A DNA stretch of 64,000 nucleotides from Novakomyces olei (lineage: Eukaryota). The notes under the pieces are model-generated. The model did no database searches. It was given only the letters and a program-made list of their open reading frames with translations, and had not been told where the DNA came from. Both the position numbers and the translations under genes were made by a program. The stretch covers positions 1,116,001 through 1,180,000 of the forward strand of contig JADEYG010000003.1 of assembly GCA_016906335.1 (NCBI GenBank), in the 5' to 3' direction. This document shows, piece after piece, positions 5,495 to 55,000 of this stretch (within the stretch, counting starts at the first letter, position 1; each line of letters opens with the position of its first letter).

Positions 5495-7700
5495 ATGGAA
5501 ATCGATCAGTCGCTCGATTCAATTATCGGCAGCCGACCGCGCAGCTCGCGAGGCCGAGGCGGTATCCGTAAACGGACTCGCGGAACCGTGAAACGGCCCG
5601 CGGCCGCGACAAAGGCTGCTCCCGCAGCGGCCGCCGCCGTGTCTGCTCCTGCGGCTCCAACTGCGCCTAAAAGACTCGCGGCCCAATCTGCTCCGGTGCC
5701 TGCAACACCGCGATCAGACAAGATTATTGTCAGCGGACTTGTACGTGGCTTTTTACGTTATTTTCGCTTTTACGTTAATTTTGCTTTTACGTTAAGTTTG
5801 CCTTGTATCGTGTTTTTGATCCGCCTTTTCGTTCCTTTTCTCTGCCCTCCGTCTCGGCTTCAGATCCGTGCGGATCTGGGGCCGAGAAAGTTTATCAAGT
5901 CGTCTAAAATTTGATTGCTTTTTCGCCGCTTTTTGCTAACCTTCAGCCGTCCGATATTGGCGAAAAGGAAATCAAGGTACTTATCACCTAATTACAGCAA
6001 CACGGTTGCTTTCGCGTTTGAATAAAGCTGTTTAGCACCAGTTTACATTGTCGCCGTCCCTCGCCCCTCTCTGTACCCGCTCAAAGCTGGTTTGGCTCTG
6101 CAAGGAGACTCGTGCCGACTCGTGCCGACTCGTGCCGACTCGTGCCGACTCGTGCCGACTTTGATGGGCATTCTGGCTTCAGACAAGTACAGGCTCCCTC
6201 TCGAAGTTTGGGCTGGTATAATCAGCTTTGCGCTTTGCCAAACGGCGCTAATTCGCGGTCGATTGTTCCAGCCAGAGCTGGCCAGATTCTTTTGCAATTG
6301 ACTTTTGCGATTGGCTTTTGCGATTGGCTTTTGCGGTTGGCTCAAGTGCAGCTCCTTATCAGGCGCGGTGAGAAGCATTGCTTGACCGGGCAGAGCCGGG
6401 AATAGGCACTTTGTGTCCTTGTATGCTTGCCGGCTTGGAAAGAAGACTGTTAGTTTCCTGGCCGTAATTGTTCGAGTCTGACCTGCTCTGCTCTTGCTCT
6501 GTCCGTCCGTCCGTCTGTTTGTGCAATCGTGTTTGATTTGACCGTGGTCGAACCGTATTGGACTATTACCTTACAAGGCGGCAGAGGCTGGGACGTGTAG
6601 CGAATGAGATGCAAGCTGAACTTGAGCCACACTTGAGCCATAGCAGGGACACTTGGTATGAGAGGGGCTTGAGAAGTCTTGAGAAGTCTTGAGAGGTTTG
6701 AGAGGTTTGAGAGGTCTTGAGAGGGACGGCGAGTTGTCTGATTGATCAATGAGTGGACGCATTCACAAAATGCAACTTACGATTGTATAAAGGGACGGCG
6801 ACTTGAAACTGTAGACGATCACGCGCCGGCTCATTTTGCGGACATCTTTTTATTTTGTTTTATTGAAGATGAGCATAAGAATTGGCCTGAGCCGATTACA
6901 CCTACTTTGTAGTCGAGTGCTGCAATTCGTTGTTTTTCCCTTTTAATTATTTGTATATTAGAGCACTGATTAACCTTTTCAATTATTTGTGAATCAAGGA
7001 ATTCTTCGTTGCTTACGTTGGCGCTGTGCGCCGCGTGGATTTGACGTACAACTCGCAAGGAAAATCGAAGGGCGTTGCTACCGTGATTTTCTCAAACAGC
7101 TCGTCCCCCCAAATTGCATTCGACAAGTACAACGGAAAGCAGGTGGACAACAGAACTCTTCGCGTATGATGAAATAAGGTTTATACTTGGGTTTCTTACA
7201 TTTTTAGATCGAAATCGTGTATAACCCAAACAATATCAAGTCTTCTTTGGCCGCACGCATTGCTCCAGCAGCTCTGGAGCAGGCAGCAGCGTAAGTGAAA
7301 TATGGAATACAAAATAAACTAGAGTTGAAATAAAAATAAAAATAAAAAAGGAAATAAAAAAGAGAAACATTCAAGAAACTTTGCTGACAAGGATCGTTTG
7401 CTAATATCAAAGTGCTGTTACGAGCGGCAAAAAGACTCGCAGTCAGAAACGAAAAGAAAAAAAGGCGGCAGCAGGAGCAGCGGCCGCTGCTCCAGCAGCC
7501 GCTTCTGCTCCAGCCAATGCTGCTTCTAAACCACAGAAAAGCACAAAGAAGCCGCGCCCTGCACGTGTTCGCCGAACAAAGAAAACCGCAGCAGAATTGG
7601 ACGCAGAGATGTCTGATTACTTTGGGCAAAAGGTACGTCTGTCGCTGGAGACTGGAAAATACTAACAAAGCAGGCAAACGCTGAAGCTCAAGCAGCGTAA
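5495..7700 (+). CDS. YRA1: mRNA export adaptor Yra1/Mlo3 (ALY/REF)
   Basis: N-box MEIDQSLDSII, RRM (KIIVSGLPSDIGEKEIKEFF...YNSQGKSKGVATVIF) and C-box KTAAELDAEMSDYF. Introns at 5741-5946, 5977-6998, 7164-7207, 7291-7412 and 7633-7673. Confidence 0.93.
6107..6160. repeat. Tandem 10-mer (GACTCGTGCC)x5 inside YRA1 intron 2
   Basis: Perfect repeat read directly. Confidence 0.95.
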
Positions 7701-7737: not shown

Positions 7738-7793
7738 TGACTGCCTCAAGATGCACTGACTGCCTTGAGATGCACTGACTGCCTTGAGATGCT
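7738..7793. repeat. About 3 copies of a 19-mer (TGACTGCCTTGAGATGCAC) in the YRA1 3' region
   Basis: Direct tandem repeat with one variant copy. Confidence 0.85.
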
Positions 7794-13638: not shown

Positions 13639-13974
<336 letters not shown>

Positions 13975-19214: not shown

Positions 19215-23669
<4,455 letters not shown>

Positions 23670-24161
23670 CGTGCACGTACGCACCTGCGCACAGCACTGT
23701 GCTGCGCGTTTACACGCGCGTTATTCGCCCTCTTCAATTTTCAAAAAGAAAAGGCGCCAACTTTCACAGCGTGACTATTTCATTAGTGAACTCGATACAT
23801 TTATGCTTGTGTATGATATTACCCATACACTTCATTATTGACCGTGCCACATTAGCGGCCGAGCGTGCTAGATAGTCAAAAAATCCTCAAGGCAAGCCGT
23901 CTGATCCCTTAAAGACTTTATCTGCTACGGCAAATAGGATCAGTGAATAATTGGCGTCTGTTTATAATCAATCATTCGTGCGCCGTGCACGCACATAATT
24001 CTCGACTCGAAATGGGTACAAAGTTGTCCACAGATCTAATCCAGAGATAAGCTTAATCGTATATCAGTATAACGCTCGACATTACTTTAATATTGAAATA
24101 TAATAAATATAATTTTATTACATAAAATAATGAATTTAATTAATCTTCAGCTAGCAAAAAT

Positions 24162-25127: not shown

Positions 25128-26627
25128 TCAAGACATTACCGTGCCGATATTGATAACGACAGATTTGATCTCTGTGTATGCCTCGAGAGCGTAGCTGCCG
25201 AGCTCACGGCCGATACCACTTTGCTTGTATCCACCAAATGGAATACCCCAGTGCAGTTGGTTGTAGCAGTTGACCCATACGGTACCAGCCTGCAGAGCAT
25301 TGCTGACACGAATAGCAGTGCCAATGTTTGCAGTATGCACAGCCGAAGCCAGACCGTAGATGGTGTCGTGCGCCTTTTGGATAACGTCTGCTTCGTCCTT
25401 GAATTTAGAGATGGCCACAACTGGACCAAAGATCTCCTCACGCATAATCTTCATGTCCGATCGAACATTTGAAATTACAGTGGGCTGGATAAAGTAGCCT
25501 TGCTGGCCATGGCGGTTTCCACCAGTATCGATCTGAGCACCTTCTTCCCGAGCAGAATCAACAAAGGCCATGATACGGTCGTACTGCAGTTTCGATACTT
25601 GTGGGCCCTGGAAGGTGCTCTCATCGAATGGATCGCCAACTTTGTTCTTTTCAGCACGAGCAATAAACTTTTTGACAAAATCGTCATAAATGGACTCTTG
25701 CACATAAATTCGGCTACCAGCACAGCAGCACTGGCCGTGGTTGTAGTAGATACCAAAATTGCACCAGTTTACCGCTTGATCAATGTCTGCATCGGCGAAA
25801 ACAATGTTGGGAGACTTGCCTCCCAATTCAAGTGTGGTCTTTTTCAAATTGCTATTAGCAGAGGCCTTCATGATGTTGCGTCCAACTGCGGTAGATCCGG
25901 TAAATGCAATCTTGTCAACGTTCATGTGAGATGCCAGAGCCTGGCCAGCAGTCTTGCCGTAGCCACAGACAACATTGACGACACCAGGAGGAATTCCAGC
26001 CTCCTTGATCAGCTTGCAGGTGTAGTAAGCACTCAACGGAGTCTGCTCTGCCGTCTTCATGACCAAAGTGTTACCGGTCGCAAGAGCCGGGCCAATCTTC
26101 CAGCAAAACATGAGCAACGGGAAGTTCCATGGGATGATTTGGCCGCAAACTCCGACAGGCTCATGGCGAGTATAAACCAGTTTGCTTGGATCAGTTTCAA
26201 TGGTCTGACCAAATTCCTTATCGGCGAAGCCACCGTAGTAGCGAATGCAGCCAATACACGCAGCCAAATCACCTCGAGCCATTGTGATTGACTTTCCGTT
26301 GTCCAGCGATTCGATTGAAGCAAGTATTTCGAGATTCTTCTCCATCAAATCAGCCAAACGGTAGAGGTAAAGCCCGCGCTCGTTGGAGGGCAGCTGACGC
26401 CACTTGGAGTCGGGATTGAAAGCAGCACGTGCTGCTTCCACGGCAATGTCGATATCATCCTCAGTTCCTTCCTCAATCTCGCAAATATTTTTTTCTGTGG
26501 ACGGGTTTACCACGGGGATCTTGCCTCCGTTCTTTGCAGCCACCCACTCGTTGTTGATGAATAGGCCAGTCGGCTGTGAGAGTTTAATGCCGTTTGGCAA
26601 AGTCAGATCAACTGATAGGGAAGACAT
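25128..26627 (-). CDS. NAD(P)-dependent aldehyde dehydrogenase (ALDH1/2 type)
   Basis: Motifs IIPWNFP, AFTGSTAVG, LELGGKSP, GQCCCAGSR, EEIFGPV and PFGGYKQSGIGRE. Intronless. Confidence 0.96.
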   Translation of the reverse strand: MSSLSVDLTLPNGIKLSQPTGLFINNEWVAAKNGGKIPVVNPSTEKNICEIEEGTEDDIDIAVEAARAAFNPDSKWRQLPSNERGLYLYRLADLMEKNLEILASIESLDNGKSITMARGDLAACIGCIRYYGGFADKEFGQTIETDPSKLVYTRHEPVGVCGQIIPWNFPLLMFCWKIGPALATGNTLVMKTAEQTPLSAYYTCKLIKEAGIPPGVVNVVCGYGKTAGQALASHMNVDKIAFTGSTAVGRNIMKASANSNLKKTTLELGGKSPNIVFADADIDQAVNWCNFGIYYNHGQCCCAGSRIYVQESIYDDFVKKFIARAEKNKVGDPFDESTFQGPQVSKLQYDRIMAFVDSAREEGAQIDTGGNRHGQQGYFIQPTVISNVRSDMKIMREEIFGPVVAISKFKDEADVIQKAHDTIYGLASAVHTANIGTAIRVSNALQAGTVWVNCYNQLHWGIPFGGYKQSGIGRELGSYALEAYTEIKSVVINIGTVMS

Positions 26628-27127
26628 TTTCTGCGGCAATGTTAGAGCTGTTTTAATTTAAAGCTGTTTTGATTTAGAGCTGTTTTGATCTTTCGGTAGT
26701 ATATATGATTGATTGTTCCACTTCTTTTGTATCCCTGATTTTTATTCTTCCCTGTTCCGTTGTAATGTGGGATGAATTATTTCTGGATAAATTATTCTGT
26801 ACGTACGAGATATACCTTTCGATGTAGTGTATGTATAAGGTTGTCGTTGTTTTAAAATTAGGGTTGAATGCGATTTTAGGTTAAATAGTGAAGAGTGGCA
26901 CAGGCACAAATATCTCGGAACCCGTTCGACGGAATGGTAACGGGCAAGTCGGATGGCAGCAGTACTCTACACGGCTTGGTGTACAGGCACGCACGGTATT
27001 TATACTCTTGCCGAGCACCCAGTAAGGAAAACAGTCACAGAAATTAGGTGTTAAAAGTAAGGAAAAAGTGAAAAAGGACCGATGGAAAGGTACTTGTGTC
27101 AAAGGGCGTGCGATTATTTTTTGGGAT

Positions 27128-52008: not shown

Positions 52009-55000
52009 ATGGCAGAGAAACCGGACGAGGCTCAAGTTTTACAAAACTTGGCGCGCGCACAAACTCTTCAGCAAAAACTGACTCAGAATGCTTATCAACG
52101 GGAAAAGTATGTTGAACTCATCTCTCTTTTGCGCGAGACAAAGCAGTGGGACAGCTGGAGGGACACGTATAGTCGCATGCGATCTAAAATGCCTCTTGGC
52201 GCAGGTAAGAGTGCCTTGAAAAATTTTCAGGTCTTTTTGACATTGTGCTTTTTGTACTCTTTTATGTTTATTCGGCTCTTATTGATCTGTTGCCTTTACT
52301 TGACCTCAAATACTGTGCATGGCTTTTACTAATGTCTAGAGCTATGGACAGACAGGCTTGTCGGGGAGCTACAATTGCTGGAAACGGACGACAGTATTGC
52401 AAAAGAAGAGTTGATCAATTTGTGTGCGGAGTCTGTTAGAGAGGCTTATTCTGCATCTCTTTGGGAGGCAGTTTTCCGGTTGAGCCATGCTGTATACAGT
52501 GCCGAAACGGACACGGCAGGAGGCCGGGATGAGGAGCAGGATTCAGAGCATATGCAAAACGAGTTCTTTTGGCAGGGTGTTCGTGCCACCAAGTACGATC
52601 TGCCCAATAGTGCACGTGTATGGCGGTTGTTTGTGGAGCTGCAGTATTCGATATTTGCGCCTATCGAGGAGCTGGATGACCGGGACACTCTAGAAATTCT
52701 GGAGGAGCTCTACCGTGATCGGATTGGCACTCCGCACCAGGATATGGAGGCCACGTTTGCCGATTATTCGTCGATAGTGACGCGCCTGCATCCAGACAAG
52801 TATGAGGGGCTTATGGTCCAGGCCAATGCTGACTATGCTGCGGCCCACAGTGTGTGGAACGAGCGAGAGCATTACGAGCTGCGTTTACGTCATGAGGATT
52901 CGTTGGCCGTTTACCTCGAGTACCTTGGGTTTGAGACCATACCGGAATTGAAGCATGTACTGTTTGAGAGGGCACTGGAAAAGCACCTCCTTGAGCCCTC
53001 TGTCTGGCTCGGCTACACAAGTTTTCTGGGAAGCGAGCAAGACCTTGGCGAGTCTGGGCTGCCTTGCGATACCGCACAGGACGCAGCATTAAAGGCTACC
53101 CGACTATGCCCATGGTCGGGCAATCTGTGGGCCGAGTACTTTTATTGTTTTGCTCTTGCTGCTCCAGAGATTGAAGACTTCCGGGCTAGAGTTGTTCGTG
53201 CCACCAAGATGGCAGTCTTACAAAGCAATGCCCGTGAATGGCTACATGCTGTTTATGGTGTGGGAAATGCTCTAGTAGTTTTACTAGAGTTGAGGTCGGA
53301 TGACGATACCGTGTTTAATGCTAGTATCGATTTGCTCAATAGCTTGGACAAGCAGTTTTATTTCAGTAAGAGTACACGTTAATTTTTTCACTTTATTATA
53401 CTTGTTTACATGGCTTTCGAATCTTTTTTTATTTGTTATTATCAAGTAGAGTTCCGCTGACAGCTGTTTTAGGTTTCACAAAAAAACACAATATCACTGA
53501 CCCAGAGTATGGGATTGCATTAGCAATGATTCAGGTGTACACAATGAACGGCCGAATCAAAGAGGCACAAGGCCAATGGAACAAACTTGGACGTTTGCAT
53601 GCACAAGAGCACACGTATTGGCTCAGAAAGTACAAATGGGCGCTCGATGTCGAGCCAGAAACTGCTATTGAGTCCTTATTAGAAGCCTTCGGCTATGTGC
53701 TGGATGATCCCCGGCCATTGGCGAGCATGATAGAGTACCTGGGCATCGGATCGGGCGTGAATGCCCACCATTATCGCTACTCAGAGGCCGTTCGCAAGAG
53801 TCGTGAATACTGCCTAGCCTGGACGGAGGCCAAACTTGCAGAGCAGCAGCAGGTCTATGCGGCTTACCAGCACGATATAGAAGCCAGCGCGAGCCAAGGG
53901 GAAGGGAAACGCAAGTCTGAGGAGGATACGGCAGCCGCTGACGGCAAAACGTCCACGGGGCCTAAAAAGCGGGTACGAATACTGGCGCCTGGTGAAGAGG
54001 AGGAGAAGGCGGTAGATCAGGGAAGAAATCGTGAGCATAATGAAGTCATAGTATCAAATTTATCGAGGAAAACGACGGAGGAAGCGGTAAGGCAGCTTTT
54101 CTTTGATTGTGGGACGATAGTTGCGCTCACTTTAAAGCAGCCAATTCTGGCAGAGGGCTCCAGCGAAGATATTAATGGGGATACAAAAATTGGAGCGTGT
54201 GCTCTTGTTGAGTTTCAAACGCACGACGGATTCCTATCGGGCCTGACGAAGGATCATCGCCGGATCTTGCAAGCCCCGGACCCGGACGATAATAGCAGCA
54301 GCAGCAGCAGCAGTGACTTACAGGAAGTACGTGTTCACTCAGCCGAGGGTACTGACTTGTTTGTGACTAATTTTAGTCCGCTGTACGATACAGCGGCAGT
54401 CGCAGAATTGTTTGTCCAGTTTGGGCCTGTGCTAGACGTCCGTTTCCCGAGCCTAAAAGTGAAATCGACACGACGCTTTTGCTATGTGCAAATGCTCTAT
54501 GCAGACAATGCGGCAGCTGCAGTCGCTGCGCTTGATAATACGAGTATCCAAGGCAGAAACATCGTTGTAAAGTTATCAGATCCTGCTCAAAAAAGCAGGA
54601 GATCTGGTCCGATTGCGGAGAGACGGGAAGTATATGTACGCGGGCTCGTACCAGCAGCCACGGAAGAACAGCTGCGGCAAGTGTTTGCCTCTGCCGGCAA
54701 TGTAGAGTCGGTTAGAATCCCATTACGGCCGCCGCTGAACACGCTTAATTACGGTTATGGCTATGTTGTGTTTGCAACCGCACAAGAGGCACAACGTGCT
54801 CTTGATACGCTGGAGGGTCACGCAATGGGAAGCACAAGGCTGGTATTGAGCCTTTCTGAGCACAGAAATCGGTCTGGTCATCGGGGCAAGCCGCAAAGAG
54901 GCAGTGACGAAGACGCAGGCGGAGGAAGTACTCTTGGCGAAGAAAAATCGAGTCAAAATAGTGATAAAGCCGAAAGCAAACAAACTTTTGGATCTAGTAA

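What the first reader, a model, noticed from the sequence alone, without database searches (positions are those of the whole stretch)
5977..6998. Giant YRA1 intron with nested long-range helices and a two-partner docking element
Seen: the intron is 1022 nt and GC-balanced, whereas the other introns here are 35-350 nt and mostly AT-rich. Element GTCGCCGTCCCTC (6050-6062) is complementary over 12 bp to two downstream sites, GAGGGACGGCGA (6721-6732) and AGGGACGGCGAC (6791-6802). The second pairing extends through CAGTTT 6039-6044 / AAACTG 6806-6811. Nested inside, GCCCCTCTC 6063-6071 pairs with GAGAGGGGC 6660-6668, and TGGCTCAAGTG 6338-6348 pairs with CACTTGAGCCA 6630-6640 or with a second copy at 6620-6629. 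The donor (GTACTT), branch (CTGATTAAC) and acceptor (AAG) are all weak. Known: S. cerevisiae YRA1 autoregulates via a long intron with a non-consensus branch point. Inference: this is a folded RNA switch that loops out about 750 nt to control splicing, or an intron-hosted ncRNA.
Basis: partly seen in the sequence, partly recalled or inferred. Interest (0 to 1): 0.72.

Follow-up and report, generated by a model that had tools for sequence, protein, structure and literature searches.

The report
Long repeat-filled YRA1 regulatory intron
This is the unusually long intron that yeasts keep in their mRNA-export gene YRA1 to control the gene's own output, here swollen by short repeated sequences whose matching halves could pair in the RNA, though nothing yet shows that the pairing is used.

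Summary
Window 5977-6998 is a 1022-nt, 49% GC intron in a Yra1/ALY-REF gene, and every reported complementarity sits at the stated coordinates. The repeats exceed chance.

The intron lies at the same codon position and phase as the S. cerevisiae YRA1 autoregulatory intron, directly before the EFF motif. It is therefore the orthologue of a known long, poorly spliced regulatory intron. It has a weak donor, an off-consensus branch site and a stop five codons in.

The "RNA switch" reading is not supported:
- The right arm is one 21-nt inverted copy of 6051-6071, split by a 52-nt minisatellite, and the second "partner" is a 15-nt direct duplicate.
- Five tandem arrays fill the intron, so these look like DNA-level duplications.
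- Fold energy is ordinary (z = -1.7 sense, -3.0 antisense).
- Shuffled sequences are predicted to bring donor and branch site as close or closer.
- The alternative partner has 2% predicted occupancy.
- Rfam finds nothing in the intron.

No relatives' DNA and no RNA data were reachable, so covariation and splicing remain untested.

Verdict: a new member of a known kind, of modest interest.

The parts
5495..5740 (+). Exon 1 of the Yra1/REF gene. It holds the N-box (start of the protein), a basic/Ala-rich linker and the RRM RNP2 strand (KIIVSGL).
   Evidence: ORF. Aligns with Yra1 family proteins.
5741..5946 (+). Intron 1, 206 nt (GTACGT ... GCTAAC ... CAG). It contains a 17-nt x3 tandem repeat at 5751-5801.
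5947..5976 (+). 30-nt microexon (PSDIGEKEIK, RRM loop 1 / helix 1).
   Evidence: The frame and the alignment require it. The Tortispora annotated protein P0243 lacks exactly these 10 columns.
5977..6998 (+). Intron 2, 1022 nt, phase 0, GC 0.49. It is the positional orthologue of the S. cerevisiae YRA1 intron.
6039..6077 (+). Left arm. 6051-6071 is the exact 21-nt core, and 6039-6044 adds CAGTTT for the distal partner.
   Evidence: I4, I5, I8. Pairing probabilities 0.96-0.98.
6107..6160 (+). Tandem array, 10 nt x 5.4, 100% identical.
6289..6342 (+). Tandem array, 13 nt x 4.2, 92% matches.
6338..6353 (+). Inner left arm (TGGCTCAAGTGCAGCT).
   Evidence: I2, I3. Predicted pairing with 6614-6629 is about 0.99.
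6614..6640 (+). Inner right arm. It holds an 11-nt x1.9 duplication (ACTTGAGCCA twice), which gives two registers.
   Evidence: (D6, I2, I3). The 6630-6640 register has predicted probability 0.
6655..6668 (+). Right arm, first half (GAGAGGGGC plus a GU/AU extension). It pairs with 6063-6077.
6669..6720 (+). Minisatellite (about 10 nt x 6.7 counting the flanks, 89% matches) that splits the right arm. It is predicted to fold on itself.
6721..6737 (+). Right arm, second half (GAGGGACGGCGA). This is the proximal partner of 6051-6062.
   Evidence: I5. Probability 0.98.
6791..6811 (+). Distal partner. It is a 15-nt direct duplicate of 6722-6736 (93%) followed by AAACTG.
   Evidence: (D5, I4). Probability 0.02. 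It becomes the partner if 6721-6732 is blocked, at a cost of +9.1 kcal/mol.
6964..6974 (+). Candidate branch region (ACTGATTAAC). It lies 25 nt upstream of the AAG acceptor.
   Evidence: Sequence. Not mapped experimentally.
6992..6999 (+). AATCAAGG at the 3' junction. It repeats the 5' junction octamer at 5970-5977.
6999..7163 (+). Exon 3, the rest of the RRM (RNP1 KGVATVIF).
   Evidence: Pfam RRM_1, 3.1e-9..
7208..7290 (+). Exon 4. Intron 3 (7164-7207, 44 nt) precedes it, and intron 4 (7291-7412, 122 nt, AAG acceptor) follows.
7413..7632 (+). Exon 5, with the C-box (ELDAEMSDYF).
   Evidence: Pfam FoP_duplication 8.6e-4, below its cutoff. Best PDB match is the Yra1 C-box 5sup_G, E 0.057..
7674..7700 (+). 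Exon 6 and the stop codon. Intron 5 is 7633-7673 (GTACGT ... TACTAAC ... CAG).
   Evidence: The spliced CDS is 771 nt with a single terminal stop.

Best explanation
The interval is the long, deliberately poorly spliced regulatory intron of the YRA1/ALY-REF mRNA-export adaptor gene. It is inherited at the same codon position as the S. cerevisiae YRA1 intron.

How it most likely works is inferred by homology and not shown here. The size, a donor lacking the +5 G, an off-consensus branch site and an AAG acceptor make splicing slow. Excess Yra1 protein then tips transcripts towards the unspliced form. That form carries a stop five codons into the intron and is destroyed, by NMD as reported for Yarrowia or by an Edc3-type route as in S. 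cerevisiae.

The 'nested helices' are real complementary sequences. They are best read as by-products of local DNA duplication in a repeat-prone stretch:
- a 21-nt inverted copy later split by a growing minisatellite;
- a 15-nt direct duplicate that creates the 'second partner';
- an 11-nt duplication that creates the two inner registers.

In the RNA the 21-bp split helix would very probably form and loop out about 680 nt. This may help the spliceosome span the intron, but no evidence singles it out as a selected switch.
For: Gene identity.
- N-box, RRM and C-box align with proteins that their sources name YRA1 or RNA annealing protein.
- RRM_1 at 3.1e-9.
- The best PDB hit of the C-terminal exon is the Yra1 C-box.

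Positional homology.
- S. cerevisiae Yra1 (P0362) and its exon-1 read-through ORF (P0360) part after R95, directly before EFF.
- The intron's 5' boundary is at nt 285 (PMC2864733, passages read).
- The window's intron 2 falls after K92, before EFF, in phase 0.
- PMC2911113 (passages) states that YRA1 homologues of all hemiascomycetes carry a long intron with a divergent branch motif. In Y. lipolytica it is 850 bp, and the retained form accumulates only in NMD mutants.
- Retention here gives a stop at codon 97, against 92 exonic codons.

Duplication origin.
- Five arrays lie in the intron, three of them scoring 60 or more.
- I count about 30 distinct arrays at that score in the 64-kb window, from the 42 rows.
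- The right arm collapses to an exact inverted copy of 6051-6071 once the array is removed.
- The distal partner is direct repeat D5.
- All core helices are pure Watson-Crick.

No structural excess.
- Sense z = -1.7 (60 shuffles) and antisense z = -3.0 (40 shuffles).
- The predicted donor-to-branch path is 135 nt (pairs with p >= 0.5) or 169 nt (p >= 0.9).
- 22 of 25 shuffles are shorter at 0.5, and 13 of 25 at 0.9.
Against: - The arms are perfect (21 of 21 and 15 of 16) although the interior is evolving fast. That fits recent origin but also fits selection.
- Outside the cores the arms share no extended homology, so they are not visibly remnants of a longer duplication.
- High-confidence long-range pairs number 45, against a shuffle mean of 15. 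Only 1 of 25 shuffles reaches 45.
- Hooks et al. 2016 (PMC4937481, passages read) predict a conserved structure in the S. cerevisiae YRA1 intron. Structured YRA1 introns therefore have precedent.
- No RNA data and no relatives were available, so neither splicing, autoregulation nor neutrality was tested.
Confidence: 0.62

Rival explanations
1. The long-range helices are selected RNA structure. A loop-out ('zipper-like') enhancer would bring the weak donor and the weak branch site together. The duplicated partner would act as a back-up or as the alternative state of a switch, possibly set by Yra1 itself.
For: - The 21-bp split helix and the 16-nt inner helix have predicted probabilities of 0.96-0.99.
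- Leaving the left arm unpaired costs 21.1 kcal/mol.
- Blocking the proximal partner moves the arm to the distal one, at a cost of 9.1 kcal/mol.
- The arms stayed perfect on both sides of an expanding minisatellite.
- Precedents: the RPS17B and RPL7B zipper stems, and the protein-controlled exclusive structure of RPL7B (PMC12311795 abstract and passages; PMC12350175 passages).
- A predicted conserved structure in the S. cerevisiae YRA1 intron (PMC4937481).
Against: - There is no covariation evidence, because no relatives were available.
- Fold energy is ordinary on the sense strand and more extreme on the antisense strand.
- Shuffles shorten the donor-to-branch path as much or more.
- The stem fails the published zipper-stem linker limit. 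Linkers total about 314 nt (proximal) or 224 nt (distal), against 42-85 nt (definition in PMC12350175; coordinates).
- Distal-partner occupancy is 0.02.
- Every helix coincides with a DNA repeat.
Confidence: 0.2
2. The core 6039-6811 is a decayed non-autonomous transposon (MITE or foldback type) that landed inside the old YRA1 intron. Its terminal inverted repeats would be the 'docking' elements.
For: - Inverted termini CAGTTT..GTCGCCGTCCCT / AGGGACGGCGAC..AAACTG bracket about 770 nt.
- Subterminal tandem arrays are typical of foldback-type elements (general knowledge, recalled).
- GC is higher than in the neighbouring introns.
Against: - No other copy in the 64-kb window.
- All 131,496 contigs (17.8 Mb) of run X1, the probable source assembly, were laid at 80% likeness or more. 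Of the 5 records that laid, only the locus's own 4 cover the intron. The tool warns that a filter can drop records.
- No target-site duplication flanks the arms: gcac|CAGTTT on the left and AAACTG|taga on the right.
- No transposase-like ORF. Pfam on 4 intron ORFs gave only one chance-level hit, E 0.02, below its cutoff.
Confidence: 0.12
3. The whole intron is a recent gain by insertion. This is suggested by the 8-nt direct repeat AATCAAGG at both junctions, which resembles a target-site duplication.
For: The octamer occurs at 5970-5977 and 6992-6999. Beyond the AG|G expected from splice consensus, five further bases match, which by my estimate has a chance of about 1 in 1000.
Against: - The position and phase are identical to the S. 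cerevisiae intron.
- The Tortispora protein model lacks exactly the microexon, implying introns at the same two sites.
- The literature reports a long intron in all hemiascomycete YRA1 genes.
- No terminal inverted repeats lie at the intron ends.
Confidence: 0.03
4. The intron hosts an independent non-coding RNA, such as a snoRNA.
For: The intron is long, GC-balanced and predicted to be highly paired.
Against: - No Rfam family matches inside 5977-6998 at E up to 1.
- No box C/D candidate with a terminal stem.
- The repeat arrays are unlike any processed ncRNA I know of (recalled).
Confidence: 0.03

Closest known systems
S. cerevisiae YRA1 (YDR381W) autoregulatory intron, and the long YRA1 introns of other hemiascomycetes (Preker & Guthrie 2006, not held, cited through PMC2911113; Dong et al. 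2010, PMC2864733; Mekouar et al. 2010, PMC2911113)
   Same: - Same gene family.
- Same intron position and phase, directly before the EFF motif of the RRM.
- Far longer than the neighbouring introns: 1022 nt here, nt 286 to about 1051 in S. cerevisiae (boundaries), 850 bp in Y. lipolytica.
- Off-consensus branch motif.
- An early stop if the intron is retained.
   Different: - The gene here has five introns, and a 30-nt microexon precedes the long one.
- The donor and the acceptor are also off-consensus.
- The intron is packed with tandem arrays and exact inverted repeats.
- None of the S. cerevisiae intron modules (ERE/TRE) could be looked for, because no S. cerevisiae intron DNA was available to me.
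- Regulation was not tested.
Zipper stems of long yeast introns (RPS17B, RPL7A/B; Rogic et al. 2008, PMC2536676, abstract seen in a listing; Rangan et al. 2025, PMC12350175)
   Same: A stable stem lies between the donor and the branch site and loops out most of the intron. It starts more than 10 nt from the donor and ends more than 20 nt from the branch site.
   Different: Linkers total about 314 nt (proximal partner) or about 224 nt (distal), far above the 85-nt limit of the published definition. Shuffled controls are predicted to give equal or shorter paths.
RPL7B intron 1 structural splicing enhancer with a mutually exclusive, protein-bound alternative structure (Granas et al. 2025, PMC12311795)
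   Same: An autoregulated gene, a non-consensus branch site, and one strand with two possible partners.
   Different: - In RPL7B the alternative structure is conserved across yeasts and is bound by the gene's own protein.
- Here the two partners are direct duplicates of each other.
- The alternative is predicted at 2% occupancy.
- No conservation or binding data exist.
Predicted conserved RNA structure in the S. cerevisiae YRA1 intron (Hooks et al. 2016, PMC4937481)
   Same: A structured element proposed inside the same orthologous intron.
   Different: That prediction is reported as conserved only within Saccharomycetaceae. I could not see its sequence or position. No Rfam family matched the window's intron.

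Membership tests
YRA1 long autoregulatory intron | The host gene is a Yra1/ALY-REF orthologue (N-box, single RRM, C-box). | tested here: met
   The alignment with 10 family members shows all three blocks. Sources name these proteins YRA1 or RNA annealing protein. RRM_1 at 3.1e-9. Yra1 C-box is the best PDB hit, E 0.057.
YRA1 long autoregulatory intron | The intron sits at the homologous position and phase. | tested here: met
   S. cerevisiae exon 1 ends after R95, before EFF (P0362 against P0360; nt 285, PMC2864733). The window intron falls after K92, before EFF, phase 0.
YRA1 long autoregulatory intron | The intron is much longer than the organism's ordinary introns. | tested here: inconclusive
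   It is 1022 nt, against 206, 44, 122 and 41 nt for the other four introns of the same gene (with intron 5 corrected). No genome-wide intron set was available.
YRA1 long autoregulatory intron | The branch site is non-consensus. | tested here: inconclusive
   The best candidate is GATTAAC at 6968-6974, where introns 1 and 5 have GCTAAC and TACTAAC. The branch point was not mapped.
YRA1 long autoregulatory intron | Splicing is inefficient and responds to the Yra1 level, and the unspliced RNA is degraded. | not testable with these tools
   No RNA run was listed for this DNA. Only a stop at codon 97 on retention is shown.
Zipper stem (sensu Rangan et al. 2025) | A stem of at least 6 bp with high confidence between the donor and the branch site. 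| tested here: met
   A 21-bp split helix with pairing probability 0.96-0.98. This is a prediction only.
Zipper stem (sensu Rangan et al. 2025) | The linkers from stem to donor and from stem to branch site total 42-85 nt. | tested here: not met
   74 + about 240 nt for the proximal partner, and 62 + about 162 nt for the distal one (coordinates; definition).
MITE / foldback transposon or introner | Several copies in the genome. | tested here: not met
   None in the window. Of 131,496 contigs of run X1 laid at 80% or more, only the locus's own cover the intron. Older, more diverged copies are not excluded.
MITE / foldback transposon or introner | Terminal inverted repeats flanked by a target-site duplication. 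| tested here: not met
   The inverted arms have no flanking direct repeat. The junction octamer has no adjacent inverted termini.
Intron-hosted snoRNA or other Rfam family | A match to a covariance model, or box motifs with a terminal stem. | tested here: not met
   No Rfam hit within 5977-6998 at E up to 1. No C/D candidate.

The most novel reading that the evidence does not exclude
Yra1 is an RNA-annealing protein. In this lineage its own intron may have evolved long-range helices with a duplicated docking site, so that Yra1-promoted annealing (or a re-pairing from the proximal to the distal partner) directly sets how fast the weak donor and branch site are brought together. That would be a structural, protein-sensed autoregulatory switch in an mRNA-export factor gene.
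Probability: 0.08. Interest if true: 0.75.

Novelty: new member of a known kind. Interest (0 to 1): 0.3.

Why it matters
The finding shows that the long YRA1 intron occupies the same codon position in S. cerevisiae and in an ascomycete with no close named relative. Its best named matches for a conserved enzyme are only 64-70% identical (one 49% row, from an insect assembly, excluded). Here the intron sits behind a 30-nt microexon that at least one public annotation appears to have missed.

That strengthens the view that this intron is an old, maintained regulatory device rather than a Saccharomyces peculiarity.

The helices themselves are a cheap and clear experimental target, because the arms are exact and GC-rich. 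At present they are no more than a plausible by-product of repeat turnover.

Tried and rejected
- Whole-genome search: no genome is held for this window.
- Copies elsewhere in the window: none beyond chance-level matches of 24 nt or less.
- Public runs: no RNA holder is listed, so expression and splicing could not be examined.
- Four DNA contig sets laid. X1 is the probable source. X2 is identical wherever it is covered (7 records, 0 differing letters). X3 is a 170-nt identical piece plus an unrelated repeat match. X4 gave nothing. So there was no variation to use.
- Metagenome scan with exon 3: 1 confirmed locus out of 596 or more pattern matches, and it is a nucleolin-like multi-RRM gene.
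- Word-indexed protein search with exon 3 against longer proteins: 17 candidates, none scored.
- Earlier scan notes: nothing for this genome, for relatives or for 'YRA1'.
- PDB search with exon 1: only a chance-level hit.
- PDB search with the partial RRM ranks nucleolin and others above ALY. The RRM alone therefore does not identify the family. The N- and C-boxes and the full alignment do.
- Extended homology between the arms, or a long degenerate palindrome: not found.
- Global fold z-score as evidence of structure: rejected.
- Predicted donor-to-branch shortening as evidence: rejected after the shuffle control.
- Pfam on four intron ORFs: nothing credible.
- Preker & Guthrie 2006 (PMC1464842) is not held. 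Its content is cited only through PMC2911113.
- Supplements of the papers were not opened. Those of PMC4937481 may hold the S. cerevisiae YRA1 structure prediction.
Full report
**What is there**

The + strand of window 5495-7700 encodes a 256-residue protein in six exons. The spliced CDS is 771 nt with a single terminal stop. Introns fall after residues 82, 92, 147, 174 (phase 2) and 248.

The protein has three parts:
- an N-terminal box at its start;
- one RRM (Pfam RRM_1 3.1e-9 on exon 3 alone);
- a C-terminal box. Pfam FoP_duplication scores 8.6e-4, below its cutoff. The best solved-structure match of that exon is the S. cerevisiae Yra1 C-box, 5sup_G, E 0.057.

A full HMMER scan with exon 3 returned 341 proteins at E up to 0.001. 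Multi-RRM proteins lead the list. The single-RRM hits of 210-260 residues align with the window protein over all three blocks.

I looked up ten of these hits by exact sequence.
- Seven carry names, two of them informative: 'RNA-binding protein YRA1' (Ascoidea rubescens) and 'RNA annealing protein' (Wickerhamomyces ciferrii).
- Three are unnamed.

The partial RRM on its own does not pick out the family. Nucleolin, Pub1 and others outrank ALY in the PDB search.

The organism is an ascomycete without a close named relative. For the intron-free aldehyde dehydrogenase at 25128-26657(-), the best hit is an unnamed 80% match. Named fungal hits are 64-70% identical and come from Orbiliomycetes, Sordariomycetes, Saitoella and others.

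**The observation**

Removing 5977-6998 (1022 nt, GC 0.49) is the only way to join the microexon 5947-5976 to exon 3 in frame.

It is more than chance within the intron. In 500 dinucleotide shuffles, exact 12-mer inverted matches average 0.03 against 2 observed, and 9-mers average 1.8 against 15 observed.

One caution applies. By my estimate, a 64-kb window should hold about four exact 12-mer inverted pairs within 1 kb by chance. At least one other widely spaced exact pair of 12 nt or more is seen, at 53603/54196. The listing printed only 25 of its 46 pairs. What is improbable is the contiguous 21-nt arm, not a single 12-mer.

**Anatomy of the repeats**

- The left arm 6051-6071 is continuous.
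- Its partner is GAGAGGGGC (6660-6668), then a 52-nt stretch of an approximately 10-nt minisatellite, then GAGGGACGGCGA (6721-6732).
- With the array taken out, the right arm is an exact 21-nt inverted copy of the left.
- The 'second docking site' 6791-6805 is a 15-nt direct duplicate of 6722-6736 with one difference (D5).
- The two registers of the inner helix come from an 11-nt duplication at 6620-6640 (D6).

The intron also holds a 10-nt x5.4 array (100% identical), a 13-nt x4.2 array and a GTCC x3.8 run. Intron 1 and the 3' UTR of the same gene carry further arrays of 17 and 19 nt. Arrays of 10-24 nt are common across the window, including in coding regions.

All core helices are pure Watson-Crick, and no extended homology surrounds them. 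This is the signature of small DNA duplications, direct and inverted, in a repeat-prone sequence.

**Does the RNA fold say more?**

The minimum-energy fold is -343.4 kcal/mol.
- Against 60 dinucleotide shuffles, z is only -1.7.
- The antisense strand gives z = -3.0 against 40 shuffles.
- There is therefore no sense-strand excess.

Predicted occupancy in the ensemble:
- the left arm pairs with the proximal partner at 0.98;
- 6063-6071 pairs with 6660-6668 at 0.96;
- the inner helix 6338-6353/6614-6629 pairs at about 0.99;
- the distal partner has 0.02, and the 6630-6640 register has 0.

Energy costs:
- blocking 6721-6732 moves the arm to the distal site, at +9.1 kcal/mol;
- blocking the left arm costs +21.1 kcal/mol.

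High-probability pairs shorten the donor-to-branch path from 996 nt to 135 nt (p >= 0.5) or 169 nt (p >= 0.9). The control undoes this as evidence. Of 25 shuffles, 22 give a shorter path at 0.5 and 13 at 0.9. Only the count of confident long-range pairs is high: 45 against a mean of 15, with 1 of 25 shuffles reaching 45.

The stem also fails the published zipper-stem definition.

**What the intron is**

S. cerevisiae Yra1 (P0362) and the ORF that reads from exon 1 into the intron (P0360) are identical up to R95 and then part, directly before EFF. Dong et al. 2010 give the intron's 5' boundary as nt 285 (PMC2864733, passages).

The window's long intron falls after K92, directly before EFF, in phase 0. 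It is therefore the positional orthologue of the YRA1 autoregulatory intron.

The annotated Tortispora caseinolytica protein (P0243) lacks exactly the ten residues of the window's microexon. This suggests the same two introns there, with the microexon missed by the annotation. That is an inference.

Many database entries are partial ORFs:
- about 125-150 residues, matching only the C-terminal 55-64% of the query;
- 97 or 106 residues. The 97-residue one that I read is exon 1 plus two intron codons.

This is what a long intron does to gene callers.

Mekouar et al. 2010 (PMC2911113, passages) state that YRA1 homologues of all hemiascomycetes have a long intron whose branch motif diverges from consensus in almost all species. 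The Y. lipolytica intron is 850 bp, and its retained form accumulates only in NMD mutants.

In the window:
- the donor GTACTT lacks the +5 G that three of the gene's four other donors have;
- the branch candidate reads TTAAC where introns 1 and 5 have CTAAC;
- the acceptor is AAG, which intron 4 also uses;
- retention gives a stop at codon 97.

**Mechanism**

By homology, which is inferred and not shown here, slow splicing makes the mRNA yield sensitive to the Yra1 level, and unspliced RNA is non-productive and degraded. Which decay route applies is unknown.

The 21-bp helix is strong enough (duplex about -40 kcal/mol) that it should form in the transcript and extrude about 680 nt. Whether that matters for splicing is open.

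**Rivals**

- A selected loop-out or switch remains possible. The arms are perfect, and there are precedents in RPL7B (PMC12311795) and in a predicted conserved structure in the S. cerevisiae YRA1 intron (PMC4937481). It has no positive evidence here.
- A decayed transposon is disfavoured.
  - No other copy lies in the window.
  - None lies among the 131,496 contigs of the probable source assembly laid at 80% or more (with the tool's caveat that a filter may drop records).
  - No target-site duplication flanks the arms.
  - No transposase remnant was found.
- A recent intron gain is suggested by the AATCAAGG octamer at both junctions. The conserved position contradicts it.
- A hosted ncRNA has no support.

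**Limits**

- No genome is held for this window.
- No RNA run is listed.
- No related DNA was reachable.
- Covariation, expression and splicing therefore remain untested.
- Paper supplements were not opened.

**Verdict**

This is a new member of a known kind: the YRA1 long regulatory intron in a poorly sampled ascomycete. It is repeat-inflated, and its strong but so far unexplained long-range complementarity is most economically a by-product of duplication.

Noticed in passing
window 5911-5975: A 17-nt, 88% inverted repeat pairs the 3' part of intron 1 (5911-5927) with the last 17 nt but one of the microexon (5959-5975). The loop encloses intron 1's branch site and acceptor. The local fold is -20.5 kcal/mol, z = -2.1, and 8 of 200 shuffles fold as well. 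It could affect microexon inclusion.
   Followed up: partly
window 5970-5977 and 6992-6999: The same octamer AATCAAGG spans both junctions of the long intron. It looks like a target-site duplication, yet the intron position is shared with S. cerevisiae. This is unexplained.
   Followed up: partly
P0243 (Tortispora caseinolytica protein model), alignment: The public protein model lacks exactly the 10 residues that correspond to the window's 30-nt microexon. The microexon was probably missed in that annotation.
   Followed up: partly
window 7291-7412: Intron 4 of the same gene also needs an AAG acceptor (7410-7412) to keep the frame. It is 25% GC and holds A-rich repeats.
   Followed up: no
window 7465-7502: A 25-nt, 92% palindrome lies inside the Ala-rich coding part of exon 5. 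It accounts for the weak, sub-threshold Rfam hits (ctRNA, miRNA families).
   Followed up: no
window 6021-6026: An AATAAA hexamer lies 45 nt into the long intron. I did not examine whether it is an intronic polyadenylation site.
   Followed up: no
window 13639-13974 and 22577-22814: There is an (AAT)x112 microsatellite, and a CCTGAG x39 array inside the 1501-residue ORF 19215-23720(-). Period-10 to 24 minisatellites are frequent throughout the window, in coding DNA as well.
   Followed up: no
window 7738-7792 and 5751-5801: Further tandem arrays lie in the same gene: 19 nt x2.9 just after the stop codon, and 17 nt x3 in intron 1.
   Followed up: no
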